A DNA stretch of 64,000 nt. It comes from Phoronis australis. Taxonomy: Eukaryota > Animalia > Phoronida. Numbering within the stretch: the stretch's first letter is position 1; each line of letters begins with the position of its first letter. Positions 673-63,669 of this stretch are shown here, piece after piece. A program made the position numbers and the translations under genes. Below the pieces are notes generated by a model. The model was not told the DNA's origin and ran no database searches. It was given only the letters and a program-made list of their open reading frames with translations. The DNA lies in contig NMRA01000199.1 in assembly GCA_002633005.1 (NCBI GenBank), positions 189,321-253,320 on the forward strand. The letters are read 5' to 3'.

Positions 673-764
673 ATAATAAAGTGGCCACCTAGCTAGGCCC
701 AGCAACAAGTAATGAAGCACAGAAACAGTCAGTTACAGGGAGTGACAATGAACTAGACCAACCC

Positions 765-23601: not shown

Positions 23602-24347
23602 TCACCACCACGACGGTGTTCTTGATTGCATAAGTGGGTGACTATATGAGGGCAGGGGTACATTCATAGTGTTCATTCCCATACCCACAGATGTTAGAGA
23701 TCCCATGTTATTGTTCATGTTATAGGCACTCATGTTCATTGTATTAGGCATACTGCAGGAGGCCATGTTGTATGACGCCATGTGAGAGTTCATATGTGTT
23801 AACCCTGATGGATGGGATAGCCCTGGAGCAGACATGGCTAACTCTTGTTGCTTCATCATCCCCATATTCGGGGGTTGACACGGCTTTCCGTCCCGCACCA
23901 ACACGGGCACTGCGACACGCCTAGGAGACGGCAATGGGTTCATGTCAAGACCTTTTTCCTGTCGCGCCCTTTTCATTTTGTAGCGGTGGTTTTGAAACCA
24001 TATTTTCACTTGCACTGGTGTTAGACGAATGATACTCGCTAAATGCTCCCTTTCAGGAGCAGACAGATATCTCTGCTGGCGAAATCGCCTTTCTAGCTCG
24101 TAAGTTTGGGCTTTAGAAAATAAAACGCGGCGTTTTCGCTTTTTAGGTTGGTCGCCATTTTGATTGCCTGATTCTTGTTCGTCGTTTTGATTATCCTTTT
24201 CATCCTCCTCTTCTTCCTCGTCCTGTTCAAGATTATGTGAGATGTCACCAGGGGCGCTGCTGGTGTTAGAATGTTGACAAGGAGAGTACACATTTTGATC
24301 TGGCGAGCCTCCGTTCGATAAAGCTGTGCTGGCTAACATGGGAAGAT
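23602..24347 (-). CDS. NKX2-2: NK2.2 homeobox gene, exon 2 (homeodomain, NK2-specific domain, C-terminus)
   Basis: Homeodomain [60 protein letters not shown] (Tyr54; SKAQTY and NHRY diagnostic for NK2.2/vnd). NK2-[20 protein letters not shown] and terminal WW. Acceptor TTTATTTACAG| at 24348 is phase 1 and joins exon 1 in frame (..GMP-N-LPMLAST..). Confidence 0.97.
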
Positions 24348-29856: not shown

Positions 29857-30073
29857 TGGGCATGCCGTCATTGTTGTGCAACCAGCGGGCGTAGGGGTTG
29901 TCTGCGATATCCGAGTAGGCGCACTGCCCCGACATTCTTGCCGGGGAACCCATCGGTAGTTTAGCCGCGGGCAACGAGCCCGTGTCTGGAGAGACTGCAA
30001 CGTCTTTATCGTGAATATCCAGGATAGTCTTCATGGAGAAGTTGCTAACTTTCATATTAATGTCTGTCTCCAT
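29857..30073 (-). CDS. NKX2-2: NK2.2 homeobox gene, exon 1 (TN/eh1 domain)
   Basis: METDINMKVSNFSMKTILD carries the TN/eh1 motif FSxxxIL. SDIADNPYARWL matches the Nkx2.2 DNPYxRWL motif. Donor A|GTAAGT at 29856. 217 nt gives phase 1; intron 5509 bp; protein 320 aa. Confidence 0.93.
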
Positions 30074-32937: not shown

Positions 32938-33002
<65 letters not shown>

Positions 33003-33560
33003 TATCATCATCATCANNNNNNNNNNNNNNNNNNNNNNNNNNNNNNNNNNNNNNNNNNNNNNNNNNNNNNNNNNNNNNNNNNNNNNNNNNNNNNNNNNNN
33101 NNNNNNNNNNNNNNNNNNNNNNNNNNNNNNNNNNNNNNNNNNNNNNNNNNNNNNNNNNNNNNNNNNNNNNNNNNNNNNNNNNNNNNNNNNNNNNNNNNNN
33201 NNNNNNNNNNNNNNNNNNNNNNNNNNNNNNNNNNNNNNNNNNNNNNNNNNNNNNNNNNNNNNNNNNNNNNNNNNNNNNNNNNNNNNNNNNNNNNNNNNNN
33301 NNNNNNNNNNNNNNNNNNNNNNNNNNNNNNNNNNNNNNNNNNNNNNNNNNNNNNNNNNNNNNNNNNNNNNNNNNCACCATCACCATCATCACCATCATCA
33401 TCATCACCATCATCATCATCACCATCATCATCACCATCATCATCACCATCATCACCATCATCATCATCACCATCACCATCATCATCATCACCATAATCAT
33501 CATCATCATCATCACGATCATCAATTTCTTCTTCCTCATTATCATCGTCATCGTCATCAT
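32930..33560. repeat. (CAT/CAC)n microsatellite spanning an assembly gap (N 33017-33374)
   Basis: Directly visible. Confidence 0.97.
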
Positions 33561-44198: not shown

Positions 44199-45672
44199 GG
44201 TAAATTCTCCAGCTTGAAATACTGAGACGTGGACATGTTGCGGACACCTAGATACTCGATAAATGCAGTCTATAACCAGGAACTCCCAAAATTGAACAGT
44301 CAGCACCGGAGACCACACCTTTCCTACTAATCAACTCCGTTTCTCGCCAAGCTCTCTGACGATCGCAAATATTCCAGCTTAAGCAAATCTAAACTGTTTC
44401 CTAAAGCTCACCGTCGGGTTGGTTCTGCCTCTTTAAGATTTATGAACGTCCCTAACTTTTATGAACTGTTGCATTGTTGCATGAAACGTTACCAACTAGC
44501 ATCGGCATTAGATGAGGACTCAACTTTTGGTGTTACCTAAAGTAAGTCTCTAAGTTGATTTCTTGACAGTAAACTTGCTGATAAACTGCAAGATAAATGT
44601 TGACAACTGTGTTGTGTTCCAGGGTTAACCCTGGAAGGCCCCACGTTGTGATATTGCAACACCACTTTTGACAATCTATAATTAACCCTCAAATCATTTT
44701 CCACTCCTGTTGATTCATGCAACCAGTCAGTAGTCTCTACAAACTCGACCAAGTGGACTGTTGCAACGGTTTCATAGTCAACCGAAAGAAAAATCAGCAA
44801 TTTAACGATATTCTGTTGTTGACGGTTCATCAGACAGGATACCTCGCGCTTCAACGTACGACACGGCGCACCATTGGTGTTCTTGGTTCCCACGGCAGAC
44901 AAAAACTTCTACCGCAGGTACCAGCTAACGTGCACTATAGCGTAGAAATTGCTAATTCCTGTGTTATTTGACGTGCCTGCATTTGAGTATTTAAATCACA
45001 TTATCATTTGCTGTTGTTGCTACTACTACCTGGGTTGTCCACTATATAAATAACGACATTCCATTCGGGGAAGGCTTTAAAGGCACATTGACCGTTGGTA
45101 TGTTTCTGGCGGTTGTGGTGGACATTTCCTTCTCGCGGTGGTATCCCGTTTTTTCAATTTAGAATGTTCGCAACTATCCAGGTACTGGCGATGTTCGAAA
45201 TTATTTTTGTAAACCTTTTTTGATTGCTGTTTTCTCGATGTGATGTAATATGGCGAAAATGCTAATCATGTGTCACTTGACGTGCCTGCGTTTTTGAGTG
45301 TTTCGCATTTCGTGTTTTCATTTCTTGATAAAGCACTGCAAGGACTAACTAGATATTCCAATTTATAACGACAGAATGAAAAAGAAAGGTGATTTCCCTT
45401 GAAGTGAACGGTTTTTTTGCTTTCACAAGTAAAGGATTGTTCGAAATGCGGCACCGGACTTCTTGCCAGTTCTTTCGATCCGGGTGAACGTTGGTTGAAA
45501 ATACAGACAATTTATGGCAAATTGTTTCATGCATTTTACGTTTGTACGCTTTGCAGTGTGGAAATTGGGGTGCCAGGACTACTCGTAAAACTCTCAGTTG
45601 GTTTTTATAAACTTGGAGCTTGTGACATTTCAAAATCAAAGAATAAAAGCGAATATTGCGGGTAGTTATACT

Positions 45673-45678
45673 TTTATT
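45673..45678 (-). other. Candidate polyadenylation signal of the phosphatase gene
   Basis: AATAAA on the minus strand ~90 nt after the stop. Confidence 0.45.
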
Positions 45679-45769
45679 TGAAGATATCGTGTAAAGCACA
45701 ATGGCGGTTTTTATAATTGAAACTAAACATAGAAGTAAGAAGGATTTAAAAACTTGACTTGGACTAAAT

Positions 45770-47245
45770 TTATGCCCTACGTCGAGGATTGGATTTGGTA
45801 AACTCGTAAAATGTTTTTCCATTTTTGTCAACGTACGTCACAGTTAGGGCGTTTTCTTCCATCTCAATCCCCACAAATGCATGTTCGGAAGTGAACATTT
45901 TAGAATCCACCCCTTTCGATTGCGTATCCTTCAAAGCACCTGAATTCTGCGTGCGGGTTTTCGACCCGGAACCGGAAATCACGTAATCAATGACCTTGTT
46001 AGAACGTGCTTCTAAGTGCTCCATGTCATGGTCATGACCAGCGATGTACAAGGCGACACCGTATCGCTCCATGAGAGGGCGAAAGTTTTGATACATTCCC
46101 CTGGTGGATATCCACTTCCCATGGTCCCCGGAAGAGAAGACCGGGTGATGGCCGCAGACGATAATCCAATCCCCGCGCGAGTTTTGCAGTTCCTTAGTGA
46201 ACCAGTCGAGTTGGGTCTTATCTGTTCCGTATCTCCCAATCTGCGTATCGATCATGATAAAGTGTACCGTTTTAGATCCAACCATCTTGTAAAACGAGTA
46301 GTATAAACTTGGCATGTACCATCTAGAGTCAATGCGAGATAACTTCACTTGATTGTACGCACGATTAAATCTGTGGTCGTGGTTTCCAACAATGATGTAC
46401 CACGGTTTCATCAAGGCAGGCTGGTTGTAAATCTTTCTCCAGGTATTTTCTACTTGAGAATCTGTCTCGCTTGCAATACCATTCTCATAGAAGTTATCCC
46501 CTAGAGCAATGATGAATTGTGCCGTCTTCTTCTGCGCCCATTTCGCCATCTCCAACGCCACCTCTCGTTGATCTTGACCCGGTTTGCCCCAGTCACCAAT
46601 GGCAGTGAAAGCAAGGCGGTCTTTCCCAGGCGTTGTTATCAGAGGGGTTGATGTGCGCTTATAAAACATGAGCGGTTGGTTTAAACCCTCACTAATGGTG
46701 TAAAACCCGGACCCGTCCGCATTCCAACAAATCGCCTCTCGTTGAACTTCAGCTATAGTACTTATCTCTGTAGGTTCTCTAACAAGTGTTTGGAGAATTG
46801 TTTCCCCTGCCCGGCGCTTCCAGTAGAAGTTTTTCTCGTGGTCCGTCATTAGTATTTCGTCTCCACTCGGAGAAATGTCGGCTCCTCTAGGAGCGTTGTG
46901 TTTCTTCGACAACACCTTCATGGTTGTTTCCGAAATCATATCCACCACTTGTCCATTCCACATAATGTTTGACGGTACTTGATAAATGACAGGATTGCGT
47001 GACAACGTGACCGTTTTGATGACGAATACATTGCCCAGTTCATCTACCATAATGGCTTCTGAGTGACTGAAGTGAGTCCACGTCACCTTCAATACTTCTG
47101 GTTTAATGGTCGCTGAGGAGATCGTCTTGGGTTCCGGAAAACGATAAAGCGTAATATACTTTCTCAGAAATCTTGTCATCGTGTCCACAACATAGATGTA
47201 GTTCTTGCCGTTAGGCCCTCTCCCCACTGCCAAATCTTCCCAATC
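45770..47245 (-). CDS. Exon 3 of beta-propeller-like + purple acid phosphatase (ACP5/TRAP-like) fusion gene
   Basis: Acceptor TTTTGCAG|GAT (phase 0), then 491 codons and a stop. C-terminal ~280 aa has the metallophosphoesterase motifs GDWG, GDNFY, GNHDH, VCGHH and GHDH. N-terminal ~195 aa has DWEDLAVG, YRFPEP, SEAIMVD, GADISPSG and QREAICW..DGSGFYTISEG. Confidence 0.93.
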   Translation of the reverse strand, partial: DWEDLAVGRGPNGKNYIYVVDTMTRFLRKYITLYRFPEPKTISSATIKPEVLKVTWTHFSHSEAIMVDELGNVFVIKTVTLSRNPVIYQVPSNIMWNGQVVDMISETTMKVLSKKHNAPRGADISPSGDEILMTDHEKNFYWKRRAGETILQTLVREPTEISTIAEVQREAICWNADGSGFYTISEGLNQPLMFYKRTSTPLITTPGKDRLAFTAIGDWGKPGQDQREVALEMAKWAQKKTAQFIIALGDNFYENGIASETDSQVENTWRKIYNQPALMKPWYIIVGNHDHRFNRAYNQVKLSRIDSRWYMPSLYYSFYKMVGSKTVHFIMIDTQIGRYGTDKTQLDWFTKELQNSRGDWIIVCGHHPVFSSGDHGKWISTRGMYQNFRPLMERYGVALYIAGHDHDMEHLEARSNKVIDYVISGSGSKTRTQNSGALKDTQSKGVDSKMFTSEHAFVGIEMEENALTVTYVDKNGKTFYEFTKSNPRRRA

Positions 47246-48201
47246 CTGCAAAATGATTTAGAGCTATTAACAACATACATGCAGTACCATCACGACGTGT
47301 ACCTAAACATCAGGTTTTCAAGACGTAGTAATCAACTTGAATAGTTGATTCATTTCAGAAGTGTTCTCAGTTATGATATTAAAATATTTGTGTAACATTT
47401 TAGAAAAACAATCATCAATTTTTGTAGAAAAAGCAACTTGTATGGTTGCAAATAATTTCCCATTGGTCTTACAATGGGTATGAAAGGAATTACAAGGATT
47501 TGCAAAGTAATTCCATGCTGAACTACTCGTCCAATAGGTGGCGTCAGTATGTGTAACATACATGGAGATGTGAAAACATTAATTAGGAACACGTAGACAG
47601 TAAGGGGTCTATATTTCAGGAACATCGTTACGCGTGCCCCACCAAGTGAATATCGAGTCACTCTTCGTACAAAGAAAAAGAAATTACACCGGTTGCGGGC
47701 ATTGTTTTCACTAGCAGTACAATCTTGCTATTTATTTTAACAATGTTTCTCTAGTCCCAGTTCGTTCTTCGCGAATAAGTTTGTTGTGATTACAATTAAT
47801 ATCTTAATCTTCTGCAAGCAGTTTTGAAAAGTGCACTTGCAAGTCTCCCCACTGAGCAGGGGAAGTGTGCCAAAATAGCCGTCACGTTGAATAACCTTAC
47901 CTAAGGTCTATAGCGATGCACTAAACCTCAGGCGCACTGATTCTATTGGATAGTAACAGCCTAGCAACATGACGCCAACAGCAGTGGGACAAAAAAAGTG
48001 GGGTCATGGGTCAGGACTAGTGTGGACCCCGGATATTCAGTGTGTTCGACGCATGCATGGTTTTTAAGGGTGAGAATATGGAAATTGTACCGCAGGTTTA
48101 ATGGTCCAAGACAAGGGTTTGGTTGATAATGTAGCTGGAATTTAGAGGCGCGGTCATAGAATCATTGCCGTCCGCTGTTTTGTCGCTTGTCATAAACTCA
48201 C

Positions 48202-48407
48202 CTTGTTTGAAGCGCCATCTAACGTGAATGTAGCCAATAACTGGCCACTTTTTGCACTCAACGCCTTGACAGTGGGCGATCCTCCATCGTTAGTAACGTA
48301 CAACACGTCGCTATGGCTACGACTGGCCGCCATGCCAGACGCCTCGTCCACATCGCTATGCGTGACCATGGCAACAACCTGACCATGATCAAACTGTGCT
48401 TGCGTAC
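48202..48407 (-). CDS. Exon 2 of the propeller-phosphatase fusion gene
   Basis: Acceptor CTTTCGTCCCCAG| at 48408 and donor AAG|GTGAGT at 48201. 206 nt, phase 1 to 0. Encodes TQAQFDHG...DEASGMAASRSHSDVLYVTNDGG...LDGASNK and joins exon 3 to give the N-x-DWED motif. Confidence 0.88.
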
Positions 48408-48565
48408 CTGGGGACGAAAGTTTGGAGAAACAGAATGGTATTAACAATGTCTTAGCAGGTTTGGTTTGCCTTACTTACTTGAGCAGATAGTTACGGTATT
48501 GTCCAAAATCTAAGTCTGCAAGTTGTTACCCCGTCTTTTCTCACACATGATGAATTTATGGCCAG

Positions 48566-48714
48566 GGCTGGGTTGCATAAAACTTGAAAATAATACACTG
48601 GATAAGTTTGATTGTTGCGTGTCGCTAGGTTTATTGTTCAACAATAACAACGTGACTCATGATAATGCGATGTCATTGTTGCTATACGGAGTATAACTAC
48701 TATGCAACTGGGCC
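48566..48714. mobile_element. 149-bp PIF/Harbinger-like MITE with 3-bp TSD (CAG) in intron 1
   Basis: TIRs GGCTGGGTTGCATA and reverse-complemented GGCCCAGTTGCATA (11/14). CAG at 48563-48565 and 48715-48717. Confidence 0.65.
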
Positions 48715-49549
48715 CAGATTGTTAACATCGTCTAATCACGAATCTTTGAGAGTGGGAATTCAAAGGTGCCGTGAAACCGTGTTCCGTGAAAGTCCTCTTG
48801 AGTAATCTTTTTACCGCTATGAAACTGGTCTTGATGATTCTTGATGTCAGTAGGTTTCTAGGAAAGGAAAAAATGGCCACCGTGACAATGCAACTTTTAG
48901 CCTGGTTTTGAATATTAACGAACTATTAGTAGTTCTTGAGCTCAGGAGTAGCCTCTACTCTGAGTGAAGAACATGTATATATCAAAAGGCAGAAAGCGGG
49001 CTTACGGCAGCCATGTCTAAATTATCGTTTTGCGGCCGAAAAACGCACACTGGGATTTATTGTTGGATGGGGTACACTTTTTCAAGATATTACCTCTGGT
49101 CATACCTATAACTAAATGCAACCGTTGTGTTTTTGTGATTTTGCAGCACGTTGCCATTTATCACTGCTGCATGTGTTCCAGACATTTGCTAAAATCAAGG
49201 GTGGCCACTTCACGAGTTATATGCGCTTAAACTACTCTCATAATTTTTAATGGAGTGATATTTAGCTCAGTGAGTGAGTCCATGTTAGTCGTAGGTCTTT
49301 CCGATTATGTTACTTTAACACATGATGCCATTCCGTGTTCTTGGCTATGTGCTGCATGGCTTCAAGGGTTACGTACACGTATGCAGTAGTACCCCATAGG
49401 CCACATATTTGACAATTTCGGAACATCAAGTCTCAGAAATGTCTGATTAGATTCATATAAAATTTTCATGTTATACACGGCTCTCCATACGTTGTTGCCT
49501 CGATTTTCTGTAGATAAGCCCATCGGCGTGTATCATTAAGGCGTTTTAG

Positions 49550-49909
49550 AAACACCAAATAAATGCCCGGGCGTTTATTCGGAAAAGGGGGCGTGTAAAC
49601 GGAAAGTCATAGTTTTGCTGTATTTGACATTTTTTACTTAAAACAGTGTTTTTAAATTTTATGTTAATAAATGCATAGTTCGTTTTTAACAATGATAAAT
49701 GCTCCACAAAAGTGAATTTGCGTTAAAAAGTTGACGCTGAGTTGACTGCTAAGAGAAAATTTTCCGAATAAAGGCGCCCCACTATCTGGACACTTGACAC
49801 CAGAAGTTGCAACACCAAATAAACGCCCATGGGGGTTTATTCGGCATAATTTTCCGAATAAACACCAATAGCGTTTCATAAGGGGAATTATCTCTGGAAA
49901 ATCACGGTA
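49550..49909. mobile_element. Tc1/mariner/pogo-like non-autonomous element fragment with palindromic subterminal repeats
   Basis: Repeated CC(G/A)AATAAA(C/T)GCCC and GG(C/G)GTTTATTCGG motifs in both orientations. Ends GGAAAATCACGG-TA. Confidence 0.5.
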
Positions 49910-50029
49910 GGAATTGTTTTACAAGTGCCTCACTTTTGCATGAGAGGCTATCAATTATAGGAATTTTATGATTTTCATGAAAAAGTAAAAAGTTTTATAA
50001 AACGAAATAATGATTACGAAAACTGTAAT

Positions 50030-50895
50030 ACCGTTTTTGAGATTTCATGTTGAATATTTATGTCAAATAAATTTGGTAAGTTGATACCGCTGTTTTGCTA
50101 TCTATGTACCCGTCTTCTTGTTAAACTTTCCAAAAATGACATGTCCATGTGACCAAATTAACATTATATTTGAAAAGTCAAAAATCGAATTTTATACAGG
50201 CTTTTTACTTTCAGAAATTATTTACTTTTGCGGAGTTAAATTTAAATTTTTGCAGATTGGATAAATGCACAGATATGTGGACAAAATCTTACATAACCTT
50301 AATCCATCTCCAAATGTCCGAGTTTTGTCAGCTTGCAGTCATGAAACCTTGGGCAGTTGGGAGAATTGAGTTTCCCAATGTACGGCATCCCAACACTAAC
50401 ATAATAAAGTACTAGCGTGAGCAACAAGGAAACTTAAGGTATTGTCATTGTTATAAGTGTCTGCGGTCGTTTGTTTTGATTTCTGAAGTGGATTTTACAT
50501 TTGGTTATTCGAAAACACGTTGTAACTAATGGTCTAGATCTAAACTTCAAAACCAGCCGTAAACAATGTTCCCCTTGTGCATGAGGGGTTATAATTTTCT
50601 TGCAAAATCAAAAGTTGGATAAAACATTATAAACAACTGTAACAGCATTTTTGAGATTTCATCTTCGATATTTTATCAACTGAAATTTGGTCACGTAATT
50701 GATATCATTGTTACGCTATCAATCAGCCTTTCTTTTTGCTAAGATTTTCTAAAAAAAATAGTGAAGAAACCCAGTTAACGACAGCTATGCTGGCAAGGAG
50801 CCAAACATCAAATTCTACAGGCTTTCTATTACCTGAAAACTTTTACTTAGTTAAGTCTATAAGCAGTTGTGTAGATATTTGGCTAAAGCACACTT
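50030..50895. repeat. Two diverged tandem copies of an old repeat (Kolobok-like, first copy ends CCTTAA)
   Basis: TTTTGAGATTTCAT...AAATTTGGT...GCTATC...TACAGGCTTT...TTTACTT...AGATAT.TGG occurs at ~50035-50302 and again at ~50649-50890. Confidence 0.5.
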
Positions 50896-50973
50896 GGTTT
50901 TACATGCGCTTACGAAAAGTCATTACTATCAGAAGAAAGGATGAAAAGAATATAAAATTTCAAATCCAGTTAC

Positions 50974-51025
50974 CAGTAATCGTCACCGTGAAGAAGAGTA
51001 GCAGGACGCATAGAGTCGCCGCCAT
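50974..51025 (-). CDS. Exon 1 (signal peptide) of the propeller-phosphatase fusion gene
   Basis: GCA-ATG-G start context, MAATLCVLLLFFTVTIT, donor G|GTAACT. Phase 1 matches exon 2, giving the signal peptide MAATLCVLLLFFTVTITGTQA|QF. Total 577 aa. Confidence 0.78.
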
Positions 51026-54000
51026 TGCAGGTGCTCACCTGACAATCTGTTCTAATCTTCGAACTGAATAATGGGTGCAGTGAGAGACAACATGTGTTGA
51101 CTGACCGAGTTCAGATGTCCCAACAAACGCTTTTCTTTTATTGTCACTGTTTCATCTCCCATTGCTTCATTTGTTTTGACGGGTAGTTTGTAATTTATTC
51201 TAAGATATCAACACATGTCAGAACAGATTGAACTTGAAGAGAAAGTTATTATTATGACAACATACATATGGACAGACAAACGTTCAAAAGCAGAACCCGG
51301 TAAGGTATTAATTATACTCCTCCACACGTTAGCGGTAACTAATGGGTAATTACTAAAACTGACACAAGGGGGTACAGTGTACATCATCCAGAGTAGCCCG
51401 AAACCTAGCATGTAGTGTTCTTTCTCTGAATGAGTCTTTAGTGTGCAGTTCATAAGATCCACAAGTGACCTGAGAATAGGTAAAGCATACAGAACCGGTC
51501 TTATCTAGGCCGTGGGTGGTACAGCTTCAGTTTTTTACTCCTGTGCCGTGTCAGGGCAATTTCGTTTACCCTGCGTGACTACATTATTTTCATTTAGTTT
51601 TTGAAAAGTCCTCGCATTTTAAGTTGTACATTTTTTGTAAAACAGCAGATTTCATACCCTTCGAGTACGCCATTACTGTGAGAAAGGTTGCGCTCTATGT
51701 TGTCTCCTTAGCCAAGGTGGCATAGTACATGGTTATTACAGGGTTTTGGCTGCCGACGAACACCTAAGTGGAGATGAATCCTTACCTCACGTCGTTATCA
51801 AGAGCCTAAAAAACAAAAGGTTTTGTAGCATTCCAACTCACAAGCACTACTCATGATAACTGAAATTTAATTATGCTACACATTTTAATGGTTAATTCAC
51901 AGCGAAAAAACTTGCAGCATAGAAAAATAAGACCAAAAAACCCCCAAATTTGACAGTTTTCTCCCCAAACTATGCTATCTCATCACAAGTTCAGAACAAG
52001 GTGCCTCTACGTGCGGAGACCTTTTTTTGAATGCTGGATACATTTCAAAAGTAAATTTATCTAATCAGGTGTGTTGTTTTTTTTTGCAAATAACATGGGC
52101 AGAATTTAGTGATCGCATAAAGAATGCCTTTCTTTAGAAGATAAGAGAAAGGTGCGTCACCAGTTCTTAAGAAGCTAATAATTACATGGTCGTGTCTACT
52201 GATAGCCACTGCATGCCATTGTTAGAATCAAAACGTGCACAGGAAGCACGTGAAATTCCCAAGGTGTTGTTCTACAAACCATGCTGAAATTGTACTGTTA
52301 AGCCAAAGAAACAGTATAGTTGTCTCTGATTTTTTAAAAAGTGATGACGCGTTCTTTTACTTAAGTCTTCCAGCAAGTCTATAAAACGGGTCGAGACTTT
52401 TCTGCCAGCTGAATTGGGTGGAGATTCTTTTTCCAGCATCACCCGAAGCCAGCTGAAACTCATCGATATTTTTTCCACATCGTCACCGGATGCCTGTAGA
52501 AAAGGGTGGGATCCATTTTTTCTTTTTATTAACAGAGTGGTGCTTGTATCAAAATCAGTCAGTCGCATATCGGAACTCATTGCGCTTTTTGGGGCCTTGC
52601 AAATGAGCTAGTCACTTGCATTAATGTCGTTCTTTTAACATTACGAAATTGTCAAGGCGTCATAGACAATGTCGTAATGATCTCCTTTTGGGTAGTAAAC
52701 AAATCTGGTAAGGTTTTGTGTTGCTAACCCTTTAGTCTCCTTTTTTCAATCATTAAATCTTTTGAATGAGACTTTACATACAGAACTTATTTGCTTAAGG
52801 TAAAACTGCGTGATTAATTAGGGAAATTCTTATGTTCAGTTAAAGGAAATTCGCACTTGCCTCTCTTTCATTGCAATCAAACTTGTGTTGGTGCATCTGA
52901 ACATGCAAACATGGCTACAAAGAATAACACTTCTGTGGATCATAATTTTGCTATCTGAAAATGAATTCATAGGTACATCTTCCTTGGAATAATAGTTCTG
53001 TTTTTAGAACAAATCAATACAAGAATACAAATCCCGCGATTTATGCTACATACACAATGTTGTAGATAAGACATCTTTGGCTAAACGGTTTCTTACTTGT
53101 TTTCTTCCAATAACAGTGACAGAAAAAAATTCTTTCTATTTAAATAAGTGTGTACCCCAAACTAGTTGTAATTTAGTCAAACACCACGTTATTGTGTTAT
53201 TTTTAAAACTATATTACATTTGTGTTCACAAAATTAAGTTATTCTCTTCAGCTAAATGCCAAGTCTTTGTAGGAGAATGTCATGCCTGCTACCCAATGTC
53301 TACTTCGTTTTCAAGACAGTTTCTTTTGCTAAATTACTGATAGTGAACAAATTGAGTTTTCTGGTTTTTGTAATATCCAACCTTCCTAAAACTAAAACTT
53401 TTGCCACTCACAAAAAAATATGACGTAACATATGTTACAGTCCAACTAATATCAAAATCAATTTGGATGTTGTCAAGTGCCTTGAGTTATAATGTCCTTC
53501 CTAACGCTATGCCACGGCCATTACCTGTCATCTACGCAAACACCATTCGGGCGAAGTTGGCCGGATACGATCCGATGATTACGTGAAGCGCTTTGTATTA
53601 GAATCAAATTCAAAATTACGACTAACTTAGCTACCATTGTAGTTAGTAGCACCAGTGGCTGCAACAATTTTGTTGTTGTTGNTTGTTGTTGTAGTCCATC
53701 TATATCCGATCTGTTGGTACTGCTAATTCCAGAAATCGATTCTAATCTGAATGAAGAAAAGTTTGAGACTTCCTGTGCACGGGCAAAAGGAGTAAACCGA
53801 AAGGCAGTTTTTGATAGAAATCAGATATGCGGCAGTTTTAGATTCATTCTACGATAAATCAAGTACAAATGATGCTCCTGCTATTGTGTGTCACGAATTG
53901 GCTTGTGCTACATCGTGGCACCTATATGCTTCTGCTTCTTGAAGTAACAAAGTTATTGAAAACAATTTTGGGAAGAATTTGGCATCATTCACATTGTTTT

Positions 54001-54630
54001 CCAGCTCAAGCTTAGCAATGTAACTTTTTTCTGAGTCCTCTCTTCTTACCGCAGTCTGAACCTGTAAAACAGAAACAACTTTTGCTGTGATTACGAAAAA
54101 TATTATCACACAGACATTTATCAATGTTGAGCAAATTAGAAAGCAAAGCAGTTGGATCCCTAGCCGAAAGTTAAATCAGCAACGAACCCTGTTTCCACCA
54201 CAAAACCAGACTTTTCATTTGGACAACTTATCATCATGAAATTGGTCTCGATTTTTTCCTCAGTGAAAATGCAGATAATTTCAGAAATAACTGCCACTTC
54301 TTCGCAAATCCAGAAGCCACTTTTCACCTGTGTAAGGAGCAGGCCGAGACCAATTTTTGTATCTCAGTAAGTGGAGTGAATCAAAAGCTAGCTTCTTGAA
54401 TAGGATACCCCTTAAAAGCCGCTTAACAAGAAAATCGTAAGTAAGCCTTATCGGCTCTCACAAAACAGTCTGAAAATCCTTCCTATTATAGAAAATGATA
54501 ACAACAAACCTGTCGAATTCATATGTTTTTGACAACTTTTATTCGCCGATATCAAGAACGGTCTATTTGTAGTAGGGCTCGTAATCATTTGTGGACAGTA
54601 TTGGGAATATTCTCTGTGGTAGTGTAACCT

Positions 54631-54771
54631 GGCGTGCGTTCAGTAACGCTAGGACCTAGCTAAAATCTAGCCAAAGTCACGTGCTCTCATTTGAAATACA
54701 CGGCAATTTCTCGCGTAATCTCACGAAGTCTTGCTTTTTAGCGAGGTCCTAGCCTTACTGAACGGGAGGCT
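54631..54771. mobile_element. ~140-bp palindromic MITE, copy 1
   Basis: CGTTCAGTAACGCTAGGACCTAGCTAAAA pairs with TTTTAGCGAGGTCCTAGCCTTACTGAACG (27/29). Homologous copies at 60083 and 60382. Confidence 0.8.
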
Positions 54772-57313
54772 GGTTTACAATTTGCTGGTTTGGTGAGGAT
54801 AAAAAAGAAATGCCTCTCAAACAATCTGGTCCATTATATTTATTTATCAATCTATTTACTTATAGCCAATAAAATGTCTAGACACAGCTACTTGAGGGCA
54901 ACAGTACAGTTTGAAAACATTTTGTTGAACCTACGTGTACCGTTACGATCAAGAGTCCGGACACTGATGATATAGGAGACACCGAGGGGAGTCTGGGGTA
55001 CATTCAGGATTTCAAAAATAGGGCGTCCAACATGAGTTTCCTAATTTCTCAAAGCATCCATGACTGATGACGCATGACTTCATTTTGATGAACCCAAGTC
55101 AAATTGCTGCTATAGTGTGGTGTGTTACTGTAGAAACATGGGTCTGCAATAGTTCTTGTATGTCATATATCTGAACTAACTTTTGTGTTGACCTCCAGGT
55201 GGTGCTGTTAGCAACTTAAAAGCGACACCAATGCTTTCTGTTCTTGGGCATCCTTAATGCTTATCCGGGCGTGTTAAAAGGATACCTTTCCATGGTTGAC
55301 ACTTTAGATTTAAAAGATCATTTAAGGTAGGAGGCGTGACTCCTCATTGTGAGAGAATATTGGTATTCAAGTTCGTCTACTTTTTCATCGCGGTCAATGT
55401 TTTAACATGATCGCGTTTTGGGTTGTTCAGGTCACATGTTTTGATGCTTCGTATGAGCGTATTATCCTGATTTTGTGACCAATTTGAATTTTGTGAACAA
55501 TTTACAGTGCCGGATTAATTGTAAGGAAAACGGTCAGTCGCGCCGGGGCAACCCTTCCAAAGAGGAGTTCCAAGGAGTGGACTTTAATTTGAAAGAACGT
55601 TACTCTAATACGAAAGGTTACGTCACTTACAAGAAAAGAGTGATAGTTGATCATCGGGTCGCTCTCCTTAATTTCGATACCTTCCCTGACATAAAAAGGT
55701 GACGTACGATTTTACAAAAAAGGAAGAGAATCTCTTTCTGGGAGTCGCCCTATTAGAAAAAGGATATAAAGAACAGAAACAGGAAACGTTTGCCATGCAC
55801 ACCATCTTCAACCTCCAAAACCTGAGATTTGTATCAAGTAACATACAATTTAAAAAATAGACAGCCTCAGTTAAATTACTCTATTATCCCTTAACAAAAA
55901 GGGGTCTGGAGAGATATGCAGATTTGCAATCTCTAAAAATTGTTTTCTTGAAATTCTAGGCTTTTAACGTAACGAGAAATCAAAGAACAGTCGCCATAGT
56001 TAAAATCTCCATAACGTGTCACTTTATTTCTAAAACTATCAGATGGTAAAGCACACATCTATATTACAGTCGCATTAAAATTGAGTGAGAGCAATTTTTT
56101 CTACTGCTGGGCCATTCAGCAAGACGGAGCTTACACTTCGCAGAATAAACAGGAATCTTCATTCAACCATAGAACAGAGTTCTATGACTAAGCCTAGTCG
56201 GTGAACCAGCCCTTAAATTTAAGAACTGAGTGGCTACATCCAAGCTACGTACAACTGCGGGTAGGAAATCAGTGCGCCCATGTCGTCTACCGCAGTCGCC
56301 GCCGCCTCTAACTCCACCACCACTTCCATCTCCACCACCAACACCACCACTCTGTTACGTCTCTTAAACCGCCTTTCGGTGTATGGCGTGTTGGGCGGTG
56401 TGCGAGCCGTGTTTGTGTTTTGCCGGGTGAAGTCCAGTTTCCACCAGCCCATAATGCACAAAGTGTGATGGGTGATGCCATATCGAATTTAAGTCGCTTT
56501 ATAGTTGCGAAGATCCATTTTTGAAATGCGTAAAGCGTAATCCATACTGCGTTTACTTGAAACGGGTGTTTGAATACGAGAAGGTCTAGCGGGGAGGGAG
56601 AATTTTGTTTTGATGACGTCACGGTCGTGTTTTCCCAATATGGAACTGCCAAGAAACCCACTACAGTGGCAAGTTAACGAGTCAGGTGTCTAAATGGTAA
56701 TTGCCTACCCCCTGCTCTTCGTACGAGGCAAATTTGAGTTTTCCCATATAAATAAAGCGTCAGCTATACGTCATTTGCTGCCTGCACCCTGAAATTGCTT
56801 TGAGAGCAACAATGCTTAGATGTGGACCGTTGGATTTTGTCTACCTGCTGAGTTGTATCTTAGAACTACACGTAATAGCGCGCCAAATTATTGTTCCTCG
56901 AAAGCGCATAATTTTGTACGGACATAGTGCAACCATATCACATAGGCTATCGCAACAGGTACATACGTCACTCATCACGCCTCATGGAAGCTTCGCCCCA
57001 AATCCTAAAGATGGCGTTATTGCCGCCATTCTTGAAGCAGAAGGCATTGTTTTGGTTATTGTTTGAAAGAAAGGTTGTTCGCCCTCTTTTTACAATTCTT
57101 TTAGAGATTAATAGCTTCATAGAGAAAATTGATCTGTTTTCGAATCAAAATACACCATTTTTTCAATAATTTAGACCTAAATTGTTGTAATAAACCGTTA
57201 GTTTTCATTTTTGTTTAATACTGCAGAAAATTTTTAATTTATTATAATACTCATGGTATTCCAGCGATTTCCGTGAAATCGTGTCAAAATTCTGACTCAT
57301 TTGATTGTCTATA

Positions 57314-57369: not shown

Positions 57370-59231
57370 GGCCACATGGAAACACGGCTTCAGACGACAT
57401 GTTTAGCAGCCGGTGAGCTGTGTGCGTAAGCCGTGTTTAGGTAAAGGAATTCTATTTAGGAGTACAGCAGCCGTGTTCTGTGGAAAATCTGCACATGTAC
57501 GTGTGTATGTTTAATTAAAAATATGAAAAATGTATCATTTTGGATAGAGAAATGACCCAAATACGCATAAATACAAGGAATTATATCTACAGGTTTTAAA
57601 AACGATGCGATTAATATTCCGCTTAGGTCAAGTTTCGTATTTTCTACGATTTTTTAAATTCAGAATAGCACATTGTTAAGCAGTTAGTGCAACTAAGGCA
57701 AGTAAAACAAATGACGTCATTTGGTTCACATCATTCCATGACTACGTTTTTTCCTTAACTTCTCATATTACATAAAAATGGCCAACTAGTTAAATAGAAT
57801 ATCACGCAGGAACATTCTTGTAAACGTGGGTCTTAATGTTTTGATTTATGGATTTGAGCATTTGATGCTCGTCTGGCACGACATAACTTTAACCCAGCTT
57901 ACAGCGACAATTTTCAAGCTCTACATGTACGTTCTACACATCCTGTACGTAGTTCTCAAAAATGCAGCCATCGTGACGTCATGCAAAGTTTCCAATGCAC
58001 AGTATGAATCCTTGGGCATGAATGTTGTAGCAAAATAAGATCACAATATTGTACGCGTGTTTAAGTTTGTATCCATCACTATTAGTGATCACGTGAGAAA
58101 CGTTAGCCATATCTGTCCCTGTCTCAGTGTTACGTATTCACTTTCTGTTTTTCCAATTGACGACTCATTACAAATTCAATGTAGTCAATTAGTCCATCGT
58201 TGTTCTTGTCGGACTGTTGTAGAACTGTGTTGATGACCTCTGTAAAACAACAAAAAATTCAACCGAAATGCCCTGCACTGGAATATTAGCTTGCCATGCA
58301 TTTATTTCAAATTGCAAAATTGTAATTAGTAATTGGTCTCGAAAATTCACGATAACAGAAACCTTCTTAAGGCTTATTTCCCTTGTCTATAAAGAACAAT
58401 CAACAAAGTAAAAATCGAAAAGATATCGTAACTTCGAAAATTTTATCCCCGTATGAATTCGCGTTTTTACTAACAACTGAATTTTGATGACCAAATACAC
58501 TTTAACGCTTTTTTAATCACATTTGCTGTGAACATACGTTGAAGTTCAATTTCAACCCATGAAAATGTTTGCTGTGTCAGACGTTTAACACTTCGCACAA
58601 GTGAAATCTCTATGGCAGATTACTGGACAGGTCAAAATTTCAAACGCAATAGTTGAGTCGGAAAATGCGCACCCCCCACCCCTCCGTGCACACCCCTGAC
58701 ATCAACTTCTCAATTTCGTTTCAGTAAAGGAAATTTGGCGGGAAATGAAAAATTGAAGCGCAAGTTTACATTATTCTAACCGCGTTCGTTTCCTTTCGCC
58801 AAACTTTCGTCATACAACTCTTCATTTTCCCTTTCATCCAATTCAAAGACATCAGAGATTATGAAATCAATCACTGAGTTTGATGTGATAAAGTAATATA
58901 AACAAACTGGATCGGATCTAACAATCCTTCCTCTTTCACCATAAGGTTGTGACGTCAGGTGCCCGCAGTATGCCACCAGTTCACCATCATGCTTCTACAT
59001 GTATAGATTTTAAGGCAACACGATGATTTTCTCATTGATGATGTATAGCTTTTGTACAAACAGGTATGGGGGTAGTAGAACAAAGTCAATTTTAGACTTG
59101 TGAGTAAGATTTCCTCCTAACCCGTTGTGCAAGTCATTGGCACGATACTGACTTACGACTCTGGTCATGCAACAGGCAGAAGGACAGTTCCAACTCTTTC
59201 TTTACTTGAGTAGTCGCATCAGAACAGATAC

Positions 59232-59385
59232 CAGTGGTGGAGGCGCGTAGGCGCGCGTAAGCGAAGCCAACCACCTTTTGGCATTTGAACGTGACGCCTA
59301 CGCACCGCAAGTAACGTACAGTCCTCAAGGCGATACGGTGGGCTTTTGGCGCCAACTTACCTCTAATGTTACCACTACAGCACTG
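59232..59385. mobile_element. 154-bp hAT-type MITE with perfect 8-bp TSD (ACAGATAC)
   Basis: Ends CAGTGGTGGAG and reverse-complemented CAGTGCTGTAG (9/11). ACAGATAC at 59224-59231 and 59386-59393. Confidence 0.88.
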
Positions 59386-60082
59386 ACAGATACTAGTCTT
59401 AAACTTGAGATCTATTCGTTACAAGTATTTCAAAGGCCCACTACATTACCCTTAAATGGACTGGAGCAAGATGCTCCTGTGAATACTCAAAACCTCGAGT
59501 AATAGAGCTTCGCACGAATAATAGTGATTAGAGAAATTTTGGTCTAGAACAAATGGACGTAAACCTTTTCATACGTGTAAATATGCGATGAGTCGATAGG
59601 CTTTTCCCTCTACAATGGTCATTCAAGATTTCTTCTCCCTGAAATATTTGCTTTCTCACTACTCCAGTCTTGTAGTTATCTTAAAATTGGCATTCGGTGC
59701 TGTTTCTTTTTTAAGATTTCATGAAAAAAACGTTTTGAAAATCGCACAGCATTCTCACACTTGGTGCACCCAAAATAATTTATGATCCGGCACTTCCTAA
59801 AGGCTCTGATAGATTTTGGGTAACAAGAAGTGTTTTTTTCCACACCATCTTACCGAGTACTTGTAAACCTACTTCATGCTGGAGCTTACGTTACTGGAAA
59901 CTAAAAGTACGTACCCAGTGCTCTACCAACTTAGATGTATGAAGTTCCCCAGAATGTTGAAAATCTGCTGGTGTAATATCATCCACAAGTTTGCGAAGAC
60001 TTGAAACTCAGTTGGTGGCCGTAAAGAAGATACCTGGGGGTAGCAAATCTGATGGATGCGGGCTTTAGGCAGTACTTTGCCC

Positions 60083-60232
60083 GGCGTGCGTTCAGTAGCG
60101 CCAGGACCTACGCTAGGACCTAGCTAAAATCTAGCCAGTCACGTGTTCTCATTTAAAAAACACGGCAATATCTCACGCAATCTCGCGAAAGCTTGCTTTT
60201 TAGCGAGGTCCTAGCGTTACTGAAAGGGAGGT
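60083..60232. mobile_element. Palindromic MITE, copy 2 (with a short internal duplication in the left TIR)
   Basis: Colinear with 54631-54771. CGC(C/T)AGGACCTA is tandemly duplicated. Confidence 0.8.
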
Positions 60233-60381
60233 TGTTCTTGCCTGTCTAACTATGGTTCATACTCTGTGTATGTGTGTGATTTAACGAGGAACAAGAACTC
60301 TAGTGCTCTTCGCCTAATACTAGATTGCATCAGTGCATTTAAAGATAAATTAGTATAGTTCAGAAGCTGTCGCGCTGCGAG

Positions 60382-60459
60382 AAAAGTCTAGCCAGAATCA
60401 CGTGCTCTCATTGAAAATACACGCCAATATTTCACGTAATCACGCGAAGTCTTGTTTTT
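60382..60459. mobile_element. Palindromic MITE, partial copy 3 (core only)
   Basis: TCTAGCCAGAATCACGTGCTCTCATTGAAAATACACGCCAATATTTCACGTAATCACGCGAAGTCTTG matches the core of copies 1 and 2. Confidence 0.7.
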
Positions 60460-62068
60460 TTTATTTTCCCCACCAAAATTTCTTAACAGAAATGTAATTT
60501 GGAAATTGATATCCGGCGATGCACGGAACCCATTTCCGACTAGTAGACTACAAAAGTGAAAATTCCGCTGTTATGATTGTATCTCAGGGCTATAATGCCA
60601 AGAAAGCCACTTTGATTGTGACCAATTTGGGGTGGTGACTATCATAGCCTAAAAGGTGCACATCTACGTTCGTGAAGCTCATCGACCACTATAGCGCTTT
60701 TGTAATTTCATTTGTGCCAACAGGGAGCGCTGTTAGCTACCACTCGCCTTCGTTTTCTTTTAGCTCAGTCGCCACTTGTTTCTTTATTTCTGTCCAGGAG
60801 AGATTATTGTCCTCATGATGATGGTGACTCAGAGCGGACAATAACTCAAGACCGTCTAACTGCGTGTCGTTGTTGTAATCATGAAGTCTGTAATAAATAA
60901 CGCGCTAAACATCAATATCAAAGGAGCTACACTGTGTAGAATGCGGCAACGGTGGCGTCGATGGTGGCGGCATTACCAACAGACTGGGGCATTCAATTTG
61001 AAATGCATGATTCTCACTACTTCGTTATCCAGTTCATCCTAAGACATTTTTGTTAGCGTGGTACGAAGAGCGTGTGAGCGCACCTGTCCCGGATGCCGTC
61101 AGTTTCGTTCCCTCCTCGCCAACTTTTCACACCACGCCCTGTTATCATTACTTCCGATCCCGTTCGCCACCACTTTCGACCAGTGGCCAGCACTTTCGCG
61201 CTCCCTCAACCCCTCGCCCCAGCACATTGGTTCGGTTATCGGGAAGTTTCGTTGCCTCTAAAGCTTCATTACCTTCAAGGCATGGTTGTCAGTCTGTTGC
61301 AGAAACTCACCCCCACCCCGTTTCCTACGCCTGCATACATGTAGTTATCCTCGACACATATTTTTAAGAAAATCCATTGGTGCTTTTACGGACATTGTTA
61401 TGATGTGAATTTTAACCTGTCGTTTTGTCTGTACATTTTAAAGTTTACAGAATATCCACTTCAAATCGAATGCTATGATAAAGGACAGCATTTGATTTAA
61501 CGCATAAGCAAACCAAATACAAAACAAGATCACACAAGCAGTGAAGTGAAATACGTACTTAAAATAATGCCATTCCAGCTCATCTTCAGTCATCTTTGAG
61601 GGATCAAAGTCTGCTACACCGTCGTAATGATCTTTGATATGGCTGAAATACCAAACACGTGGACTTAAAAGGAATTATCGAGGTTCACATATTTTAATAT
61701 TAAAATCGTTATACGTTGATGTATATTTCAACATTTTTATTTTGAAGACTAAAACACCGAAAACAGTCATTGGTCATTTGCTGAAACACGCTCTTTACTT
61801 AATAATCATTCGACAACAGACATTTTTTTGGAAAATTCCAAAACTTAGGTACAATTAATTTACTAATTTGACTGGCAAATATCACAACCGGAACGATTCT
61901 CCCGCAATCGAAATTTTCATGAAGAGTGTGTTCGAGTACATGTATATTCAAATGTCTTTCAGAAATTATGAATGTGAAAAAATTAACAGCAGGTGATCCT
62001 CTCTGGCCCTTTTGTTTTCTTTGGTACTCAAGGGTTCTAATAATTTTGTCAGGTCTCGAAATGGGTGT

Positions 62069-62069
<1 letters not shown>

Positions 62070-62116
<47 letters not shown>
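62070..62116. repeat. (TG)n microsatellite
   Basis: Directly visible. Confidence 0.97.
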
Positions 62117-62117
<1 letters not shown>

Positions 62118-62605
62118 TATACCGTCTATTGTACACTGTTTTTGTGTTTTCAATAAATTCTTCAATAGCCGGAAAATTATTGAAAAAAATGGTAATTTTG
62201 GTTTCATGTACGTACATCATTTAACTTTTCCAGGTTTCCGACAAATATGTCCCGTAATCAAAAGCCCTTTATAAGAAGCTCGTCTTATAGATTTTACCCG
62301 AAATAAAATGAATGGTACGATTAGATGTGCACTCACAGAAAGCAAACACAAACACAAACGCAAATTTACACACAAGTCACTACCACAAGAATATATTTCC
62401 GCTAAACTTACTATCTTCAATAGGTGTTTTTTATTATTGGTTACGACTTCATGAACCGCCTATTTCTTGAACAGTGCATTAAAAGAACCATAAATCACCA
62501 ACAGCAGTATTCCCTCTGGGCAGTTTTTGAAAGTATTGAATGAACAACGTGAATGGTTTTTGCCAGAATTCAATATTTTCGGACAGTCTCATGCAAGAAC
62601 TTGTC

Positions 62606-62764
62606 TAAAAATCATGCGCACGAACCACAAAAGTAATACACAAGAGCACCGAGTCACACGCACGAAACCTTATCGTTTGGTGCTTCGTGCGTGTGGTTCG
62701 GATCCTCGTGAGTGTGATTTGTGTTTGTATGTGCGATTTTTGTGGCTTGTGAGCATGATTTTTA
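62606..62764. repeat. Long imperfect inverted repeat (foldback/MITE-like)
   Basis: TAAAAATCATGCGCACGAACCACAAAA pairs with TTTTGTGGCTTGTGAGCATGATTTTTA. Inner CACACGCACGAA pairs with TTCGTGCGTGTG. Confidence 0.75.
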
Positions 62765-63669
62765 TTTGTATGCTCGATTTTGGGTTTTTTTATGATCCAT
62801 TGGTTCGTATACGTTATCCATAAGTTCATAGGTGGTTCGTGCGTATGATTCTATGGTAGCCCTGTAATGAGGACAGACTCGAATGGCTAGAGCACGGTGT
62901 GAACACATAAAAGCGACTCTATTATACATGTACGATCCCATGATGCTCTAGTGGAACTAAGATTTCGCGCAAGCGCATATAGATTTGCACAAGGGGTGTT
63001 GATGCATAAGTTGAAGTGCCATTGAAATTTGAATTTGATATAGTAGGGGAATCGATAATGTAATCATGTAAAATCCATAAGTGTGTGTGGAACATAGATT
63101 TGTGCCAGGAAGTTTCCGGGTAGCCTCAGACCCGCTCGTGAGCCCGCGCTACTCACGCTGGCTCGCCGGTCGCATACCGAGGAGTGCGAACTTTATTGAC
63201 GTACATACTCTTTATCCAGTGCATGCTTTGAGTCATGTAACCCGTGATATTCGTCCCCACACACAGCCGTGCACATCAAAATGACCAGAATCGAGATGGC
63301 GTGTCCATGCATTGCTATACTACAAGAAAAAGAAACTGGCTTGGTATTACGTGTGTTATTCTTTGATTGGTCCTAGGATATCGGTCGTCATATAAGTTCA
63401 TTGAAATAGCGCACATGAAAAAATTCACAAGGGGTGGGTAAATTGAAGATAAACGGATAAAAAGTTTAAACAAACTTAAACAAGCAAGATAGATACTGAG
63501 ATACATACATGAAGCATTAGACATTTGGAAACTTTAACATGTAAAATTACAAGTCAAAGCTATGCATATATATAAATAGTAACTAAACATTATTTGAATT
63601 AACTATTCAGTGATAGATAAGTATCTTGAGTAGCTTCAGGCAGTCGACGGTAGCGACCCCAGGTGGTCT

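What the first reader, a model, noticed from the sequence alone, without database searches (positions are those of the whole stretch)
45770..51025. Predicted secreted fusion protein: bacterial-like beta-propeller domain joined to a purple acid phosphatase
Seen: three exons splice in frame to 577 aa, made of a signal peptide, a ~260-aa domain, a Thr/Pro linker (TSTPLITTPGKD) and a phosphatase with all seven PAP metal ligands (D, D, Y, N, H, H, H in GDWG, GDNFY, GNHD, GHH, GHDH). Established: animal ACP5/TRAP is a stand-alone catalytic domain, and ACP7 has an FN3-like N-terminus rather than a propeller. Inference: the N-terminal motifs (EASG..ASR, ND.G, N.DWED.A.G, YR.PEP, EA.MVD, G.DISP.G, Q.EA....DG.GFYT.SEG) match, from memory, an uncharacterised mostly bacterial propeller family near SdiA-regulated/esterase-like-phytase proteins, with an acidic residue per blade that could bind Ca or phosphate esters. 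The fusion may be an undescribed two-module extracellular organophosphate-scavenging or biomineralisation enzyme.
Basis: partly seen in the sequence, partly recalled or inferred. Interest (0 to 1): 0.85.

Follow-up and report, generated by a model that had tools for sequence, protein, structure and literature searches.

The report
Propeller-fused secreted purple acid phosphatase
This animal gene is spliced and expressed, and joins an iron-type acid phosphatase to an unnamed five-bladed propeller domain otherwise found on its own in bacteria, molluscs and a brachiopod; the propeller likely acts as a calcium-dependent anchor for the predicted secreted enzyme, a pairing we found in no other animal.

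Summary
The gene is real. Three exons give 577 aa, both junctions are seen in stranded RNA reads, and 197 aa of the N-terminal domain share one exon with the phosphatase, so the fusion is no prediction artefact. The C-terminal half is an ACP5/TRAP-type purple acid phosphatase with all seven ligand residues; its closest relative is a Lingula enzyme (57%) that carries WSC domains in the same slot. The N-terminal half is a five-bladed propeller, remotely related to YjiK/SdiA-regulated proteins (Z 21.7; profile probability 96%). It is not bacteria-only: stand-alone copies are common in molluscs and Lingula, and this copy groups with them. None of 89 animal-type propeller proteins held carries a phosphatase; 3 of 307 propeller proteins do (one named bacterial, two unnamed bacterial-type), by separate fusion. 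The propeller keeps all 13 conserved acidic residues. Best reading: a secreted phosphatase with a swappable targeting module (0.45); a two-enzyme fusion is close behind (0.35). Biomineralisation has no support. The scan earlier noted a bacterial phosphatase fused to a different (FG-GAP) propeller, not this one. New architecture of a known enzyme; interest 0.45.

The parts
50974..51025 (-). Coding exon 1: start codon and most of the predicted signal peptide (residues 1-17)
   Evidence: GT donor, phase 1; junction reads 11+21; five reads each end at 51030 and 51031 in X3
50293..50395 (-). Minor 103-nt cassette exon; shifts the frame, stop at codon 40; likely an unproductive isoform
   Evidence: 6 and 4 junction reads; AG/GT borders and stop
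48202..48407 (-). Coding exon 2: end of signal peptide, closing strand and blade 1 of the propeller (residues 18-86)
   Evidence: 50-58% identity to Lingula, Haliotis and an unnamed animal-type propeller
46655..47245 (-). Exon 3, first part: propeller blades 2-5 (residues 87-283)
   Evidence: AlphaFold2 mean pLDDT 92.3; all 50 listed fold matches are propeller-type proteins, Z 10-12; 2,285 clusters at E<=0.001
46619..46654 (-). Thr/Ser/Pro-rich linker (residues 284-295)
   Evidence: similar S/T-rich linkers precede the phosphatase in the WSC-bearing relatives
45770..46618 (-). Exon 3, second part: ACP5/TRAP-type purple acid phosphatase domain (residues 296-577) and stop; no intron
   Evidence: PF00149 E 1.9e-19; best solved structures are mammalian ACP5, E 2.7e-44; 57% to Lingula WSC-phosphatase
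45661..45769 (-). 3' UTR with AATAAA at 45678-45673
   Evidence: signal found; X1 contig ends at 45661 and read depth falls to about zero below 45707

Best explanation
The gene encodes a predicted secreted purple acid phosphatase whose N-terminal five-bladed propeller likely binds calcium and an extracellular ligand, and so likely tethers the phosphatase to its substrate or surface. Shown: transcript, splicing, domain order, intact dimetal-site residues, family relations of both halves. Predicted: the propeller fold. From knowledge of ACP5 (recalled): an Fe(III)-M(II) centre with a tyrosine ligand hydrolyses phosphomonoesters such as nucleotides and phosphoproteins. Inferred: secretion; activity without proteolytic activation, since about 16 residues of the mammalian repression-loop region are missing; origin by shuffling two genes already present in a lophotrochozoan, the propeller taking the slot that WSC domains fill in Lingula. 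The propeller family itself probably entered the mollusc-brachiopod lineage from bacteria long before.
For: Phosphatase groups with the Lingula and JGI WSC-phosphatases (SH-aLRT 97), then Owenia; these carry 3-4, 1 and 0 WSC domains before an S/T-rich linker, so the slot is swappable. WSC-propeller proteins exist in abalone, so the three modules are shuffled in one pool. Propeller groups with mollusc and Lingula copies (98 in 91 rows; 97 in 41 rows). All 13 acidic positions kept in at least 80% of both 79 animal-type and 192 other sequences are kept here. Nearest folds are YjiK (Z 21.7, rmsd 3.0, 224 aligned) and type II glutaminyl cyclases (Z 20.5, 19.4); their central calcium is recalled, not tested. 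A review table lists the SdiA-regulated-like propeller CarP as affecting calcium homeostasis (PMC10574481, passages). The window's propeller has a long branch (1.23, median 0.54) and has lost the 98%-conserved Gly at 109. No N-glycosylation sequon, which argues against mannose-6-phosphate sorting to lysosomes. Loop gap: alignment.
Against: No binding or activity data exist for this propeller family. Most members stand alone or carry only accessory modules (PKD, CBM96, lectin, sorting tails), which is the pattern of a catalytic domain, and the acidic set is intact. The animal grouping is not airtight: 6 of 13 diagnostic columns show the animal state, 4 the bacterial state, 3 neither, and AU tests could not reject pairing the propeller with any of four bacterial rows (p 0.14-0.52). 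Tissue and substrate are unknown.
Confidence: 0.45

Rival explanations
1. Two enzymes in one chain: the propeller is itself a calcium-dependent hydrolase, most likely of phosphate esters (phytate-, nucleotide- or diester-type substrates), and the two domains strip phosphate in sequence or over a wider pH range.
For: 13 of 13 conserved acidic residues plus S41, N57 and W88 kept. Most relatives are stand-alone secreted proteins or have only accessory domains. Of five catalytic partner domains seen among the 59 longer hits scanned, four are phosphoesterases (3 PF00149, 1 PF04185) and one a GDSL hydrolase. 2 of 80 bacterial loci have a phosphatase gene upstream on the same strand. Weak, below-cut-off PF13449 matches in three abalone members. 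Ca-dependent propeller phosphatases exist: SCAN nucleotidase (Z 14.3), PhoX and Psip1 (PMC11098088, passages). The domain also appears as the cargo of PE_PGRS-type proteins (Atlas cluster), where C-terminal domains can be enzymes (PMC9436101, passages).
Against: Only 3 of 307 propeller proteins held carry a metallophosphoesterase and I have no baseline for modular secreted proteins. 78 of 80 bacterial loci show no such neighbour and no conserved operon partner (the set is dominated by Bacteroidota). PhoX and beta-propeller phytase were not among the 50 listed fold matches. The bacterial D110 and Gly109 are lost here.
Confidence: 0.35
2. A biomineralisation enzyme that releases phosphate or dephosphorylates matrix proteins in shell-forming tissue.
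For: The propeller family's named animal members are molluscs and a brachiopod; vertebrate ACP5 acts on bone matrix (recalled); expression differs strongly between samples (exon-3 depth 36-77 in X2 and X3, 0-1.4 in X4).
Against: The Lingula WSC-phosphatases and the Lingula propeller are not among the 54 Lingula shell matrix proteins in sheet S1 of PMC13425148; neither that paper's main text nor PMC4453069 mentions a phosphatase. The tissues of the runs are not given, and the upstream neighbour gene is also low in X4. One PF00149 row occurs in another sheet of that supplement, species not checked.
Confidence: 0.1
3. A recent accident: an intronless phosphatase copy landed in the last exon of a propeller gene, and the propeller is a passenger or stabiliser with no role of its own.
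For: The phosphatase domain has no intron here, while an unnamed relative is split into five pieces (L120) and others into several, two of them with WSC upstream (L122, L123). All three listed amino-acid differences fall in the propeller (6 synonymous, 3 not; phosphatase 5 and 0). Long branch.
Against: All 13 conserved acidic residues and the fold are kept despite about 60% divergence from the nearest relative. Retroposition may explain the origin without making the domain idle.
Confidence: 0.07
4. The whole two-domain gene came from a bacterium as one piece.
For: P0217 has the same order with a short linker; the propeller tree does not reject window + P0217 (p 0.52).
Against: The phosphatase is 58% identical to Lingula and 24-26% to the three bacterial-type fusions; AU rejects window + P0217 (p 2e-5), the animal group + P0217 (p 0.002) and window + the L034 neighbour phosphatase (p 1e-4). 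The propeller AU test has no power.
Confidence: 0.03

Closest known systems
Mammalian ACP5 / TRAP (purple acid phosphatase, PDB 1qhw, 1war, 1ute)
   Same: Small-type PAP domain, all seven ligand residues and both active-site histidines; E 2.7e-44.
   Different: About 31% identity to fish ACP5 and a separate branch; extra 262-aa propeller; repression-loop region about 16 residues shorter; no N-glycosylation sequon.
Lingula anatina WSC-phosphatases (XP_013393429, XP_013393421)
   Same: 57-58% identical catalytic domain, N-terminal accessory slot, S/T-rich linker, hydrophobic N-terminus.
   Different: Three or four WSC domains instead of the propeller; uncharacterised.
Stand-alone mollusc and Lingula 'uncharacterized' propeller proteins (e.g. 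LOC106178750, XP_053406359, XP_046575903)
   Same: Same domain, 36-41% identity, same acidic set, same tree group.
   Different: No phosphatase in 89 of 89 held; most have a Cys pair that the window protein lacks.
YjiK / SdiA-regulated family (PF06977; PDB 3qqz) and CarP
   Same: Five-bladed fold, Z 21.7; profile-profile probability 96%, E 4e-9, shared blade-entry acidic motifs.
   Different: No PF06977 match in 13 of 13 animal-type members at E<=0.1; 15-19% identity.
Type II glutaminyl cyclases (PDB 3mbr, 3nok)
   Same: Fold, Z 20.5 and 19.4.
   Different: No sequence-profile match (probability 0.2%).
Bacterial-type propeller-metallophosphoesterase fusions (P0217, P0256, MGA9347955)
   Same: Same propeller family N-terminal to a PF00149 domain.
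   Different: Their phosphoesterases are other subtypes (24-26% identity; AU rejects grouping with P0217): convergent fusions, themselves uncharacterised.

Membership tests
Purple acid phosphatase, ACP5/TRAP type | Five motifs with seven metal ligands, including the tyrosine that gives the colour | tested here: met
   D304, D336, Y339, N374, H452, H490, H492
Purple acid phosphatase, ACP5/TRAP type | Small-type catalytic domain, nearer ACP5 than plant FN3-bearing PAPs | tested here: met
   PDB ACP5 E 1e-37 to 1e-44 against 1e-13 for plant PAPs
Purple acid phosphatase, ACP5/TRAP type | Purple Fe(III)-M(II) centre, acid optimum, tartrate resistance | not testable with these tools
   needs purified protein
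Vertebrate ACP5 orthologue | Groups with vertebrate ACP5 and is a stand-alone domain with a repression loop | tested here: not met
   Separate starred group from the two fish ACP5 rows, deep nodes unresolved; extra domain; loop region shorter
SdiA-regulated / YjiK (PF06977) | Five-bladed propeller fold | tested here: met
   Lingula member pLDDT 94.6, five blades, Z 21.7 to 3qqz; window blades 2-5 pLDDT 92.3
SdiA-regulated / YjiK (PF06977) | Pfam HMM match over the cut-off | tested here: not met
   no match; remote homology only
SdiA-regulated / YjiK (PF06977) | Bound calcium | not testable with these tools
   acidic residues conserved; binding not measured
Type II glutaminyl cyclase (PF05096) | Sequence profile and active-site motifs | tested here: not met
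   hhalign probability 0.2% against two cyclases; no PF05096 match
Esterase-like activity of phytase (PF13449) / beta-propeller phytase / PhoX | Profile over cut-off or structural match | tested here: inconclusive
   PF13449 below cut-off (21-22 bits against 27.6) in abalone members, none for the window protein
Horizontally acquired gene family | Animal copies form one group inside bacterial diversity and are missing from other animals | tested here: inconclusive
   one group (98) but unrooted; only 120 of 3,789 hits listed, so other animals may lie lower; Atlas cluster 94% eukaryote, commonest Mollusca

The most novel reading that the evidence does not exclude
The unnamed five-bladed propeller is an undescribed class of calcium-dependent phosphoesterase that a mollusc-brachiopod ancestor took from bacteria and expanded into a secreted gene family; it has been fused to purple-acid-phosphatase-type domains independently in bacteria and in this animal, making a two-active-site phosphate-scavenging enzyme.
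Probability: 0.22. Interest if true: 0.75.

Novelty: new variant of a known kind. Interest (0 to 1): 0.45.

Why it matters
It gives the first functional handle found here on a propeller family with more than 2,000 sequence clusters, no Pfam model and no solved structure, which is expanded in oysters, mussels, scallops and abalone. It also shows that animal TRAP-type phosphatases are not always single-domain: one lophotrochozoan lineage swaps WSC, propeller or nothing in front of the same catalytic domain. If the propeller has its own phosphoesterase activity, a whole mollusc gene family of probable bacterial origin would gain a function; a single domain-deletion assay can decide this.

Tried and rejected
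No whole genome is held for the window, so paralogues could be sought only inside it: none. Pfam and NCBIfam give no family for the propeller; no solved structure matches by sequence (best E 0.074). Foldseek on the model returned generic WD40-type propellers, with YjiK the best TM-score listed, 0.58. A mixed two-domain alignment misaligned the propellers onto the phosphatase and was dropped, so the two-domain protein was never folded; the window's blade 1 was not modelled with blades 2-5. AU tests on the propeller lacked power. Bacterial gene neighbourhoods gave no conserved partner. 0 of 36 metagenome loci with a related phosphatase held a propeller; 3 held WSC. No phage carries the domain; 5 plasmid records do. 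PhoX and beta-propeller phytase were not in the 50 listed fold rows. Literature searches found nothing on this architecture: 4 unrelated papers; 0; no mention of the Lottia model number; listings and abstracts only, except the papers cited; most subscription papers and bioRxiv supplements were not searchable. The CarP primary paper was not held. An apparent 3-nt micro-exon in the upstream gene is explained by one allele difference. No complex prediction was run.
Full report
Observation. Exon 3 alone is one 491-aa open frame that holds residues 87-283 of the N-terminal domain, the linker and the whole phosphatase, so the fusion does not depend on a splice model. Public RNA of the same species label confirms both junctions (24+21 and 11+21 reads in X2 and X3, none in X4), with first mates almost all on +, and one 1,629-nt contig runs from the 3' end across exon 3 into exon 2. 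Exon-3 depth is 36-77 in X2 and X3 and 0-1.4 in X4; the upstream gene is also lower in X4, and tissues are not given. The 16 listed coding differences are 13 synonymous and 3 non-synonymous (one search left out 158 weaker rows). The gene lies between a spliced EF-hand gene and a homeobox exon, in intron- and repeat-rich DNA, so it is part of an animal chromosome.

Phosphatase half. Residues 296-577 match PF00149 and, among solved structures, mammalian ACP5 best (E 2.7e-44). All seven ligand residues and H375 and H461 are present. The alignment to rat ACP5 shows about 16 residues fewer in the region that I recall as the repression loop. There is no N-glycosylation sequon. The nearest of 76 hits are Lingula proteins with 3-4 WSC domains (57%), an unnamed WSC-phosphatase (49%) and a stand-alone Owenia enzyme (44%). 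In a 79-row tree the window, Lingula and unnamed WSC rows form a group (97), inside an 8-row group with Owenia and Dimorphilus, apart from two fish ACP5 rows; deeper nodes are open. The animal is therefore most likely a lophotrochozoan near brachiopods (inference).

Propeller half. No Pfam or NCBIfam family covers it, yet 2,285 clusters at 50% identity match it. The first search gave 21 mostly unnamed, bacterial-looking hits, but the exhaustive one put mollusc proteins near the top. A profile of the animal-type rows found 3,789 proteins; of the 120 listed, the first 77 are animal-type, and every eukaryote name among them is a mollusc (bivalves, gastropods, a chiton) except one Lingula. AlphaFold2 on the Lingula member with 148 rows gave pLDDT 94.6 and five four-stranded blades. 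Against 48,161 chains the best matches were YjiK (Z 21.7, rmsd 3.0, 224 aligned) and two type II glutaminyl cyclases (20.5, 19.4), then a drop to 15. The window's own blades 2-5 fold with pLDDT 92.3 and match propellers generally. Profile comparison supports remote homology to four SdiA-regulated proteins (96%; 28% against YjiK alone) and none to cyclases. In a 91-row tree (4 of 88 proteins dropped: three fragments and P0020) the window domain is the first branch of a 35-row animal-type group (98), again 97 in a 41-row tree. Against this, 4 of 13 diagnostic columns keep the bacterial state (6 animal, 3 neither), and AU tests rejected none of four pairings with bacterial rows. Transfer from bacteria into a mollusc-brachiopod ancestor is plausible, not shown.

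How common is the fusion? Of 388 proteins held, 307 carry the propeller; 3 also carry a metallophosphoesterase, and none of the 89 animal-type ones does (near-copies are counted separately). The three are P0217, P0256 (unnamed, bacterial-type) and an Anaerolineae protein. Their catalytic domains are 24-26% identical to the window's, and AU tests reject grouping with P0217, so the pairing arose separately. The searches covered 270-860 aa, 37-613 aa and all lengths but only the best 150 rows; lophophorate proteomes are thinly sampled, so sister-species fusions are not excluded. WSC-propeller proteins occur in abalone and WSC-phosphatases in Lingula and in 3 of 36 metagenome loci: three modules are being shuffled. 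The phosphatase is intronless here but split in unnamed relatives L120-L123, which suggests retroposition or intron loss (inference; Lingula and mollusc gene structures were not seen).

Mechanism. The phosphatase domain very likely hydrolyses extracellular phosphomonoesters. For the propeller, all 13 acidic residues conserved across 79 animal-type and 192 other sequences are kept (E39, D58, D87, E89, D90, D107, E124, E149, D154, D209, E252, E256, E272), several at the start of a blade's first strand, where related propellers line their central pocket (recalled). I favour a calcium-dependent binding module because it fills a slot that holds WSC domains, which I recall as carbohydrate-binding, in the nearest relatives, behind a similar linker (0.45). 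A second active site is nearly as likely (0.35): most family members stand alone, four of five catalytic partners seen are phosphoesterases, and Ca-dependent propeller phosphatases are known (PMC11098088, passages). But only 2 of 80 bacterial loci have a phosphatase neighbour and none shows a conserved operon. Biomineralisation lacks support: the Lingula relatives of both halves are missing from the 54-entry Lingula shell list (PMC13425148, abstract, term search and supplement sheet S1), and PMC4453069 (term search) names no phosphatase.

Comparison and novelty. It works like ACP5/TRAP and meets the sequence tests of that type, but is not the vertebrate orthologue. The propeller is a remote relative, not a member, of PF06977. 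The 'PE-PGRS family protein' label on bacterial copies probably spreads from actinobacterial PE_PGRS proteins that carry the same fold (inference). Ten literature searches found no description of this architecture or of the mollusc family within an open-access library. One earlier scan note describes a bacterial phosphatase with an FG-GAP propeller, a different family, not checked here. Verdict: a real, expressed, so far single-lineage architecture of a known enzyme; new variant of a known kind, interest 0.45.

Noticed in passing
P0131, P0286, P0296, P0310, P0315, P0346 and other rows: The stand-alone propeller family is expanded in molluscs, with six copies on one 130-kb Saccostrea cucullata contig and clusters in Mactra, Dreissena, Mya and Haliotis; all are named 'uncharacterized' or 'hypothetical' and have no Pfam domain. 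Possibly an old transfer from bacteria worth its own study.
   Followed up: partly
window 58043-63321, minus strand: Spliced four-exon gene with a hydrophobic N-terminus and two EF-hand-like motifs; resembles MCFD2 (name recalled, not searched). Higher in X2 and X3 than in X4, like the phosphatase gene.
   Followed up: partly
window 23602-24372 and about 29819-30073, minus strand: Homeobox exon (PF00046) that reads like Nkx2.2 (recalled), with a probable first exon near 30 kb.
   Followed up: partly
window 48565-48725, 49500-49980, 54630-54776, 60083-60166: Short dispersed repeats that attract reads from both strands with many loose ends and opposite-strand joints; probably small transposable elements.
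   Followed up: no
window 693-1400, plus strand: 235-aa frame that looks like the end of a GIY-YIG-type retrotransposon (recalled; no Pfam match at E<=0.001).
   Followed up: no
L034:2846-4843 and L026:984-4843: In a Fulvivirga genome a TRAP-type phosphatase gene lies directly upstream of the propeller gene; in another bacterium a PhoD gene lies upstream. Only 2 of 80 loci.
   Followed up: yes
L120, L121, L122, L123: Unnamed contigs with intron-split phosphatases of a related type, two with WSC exons upstream.
   Followed up: partly
P0118 cluster, P0017, P0020: Dinoflagellate (Symbiodinium, Effrenium) tandem propellers and other eukaryote-looking copies branch among the bacterial-type rows, apart from the animal group, suggesting separate acquisitions.
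   Followed up: partly
window 51031-52500, minus strand: Low-depth same-strand reads upstream of the start codon, with one joint 51805/52365 in 6 reads: possibly a longer minor 5' UTR or a separate transcript.
   Followed up: no
window about 33000-33400: Assembly gap (run of N) inside trinucleotide repeats.
   Followed up: no
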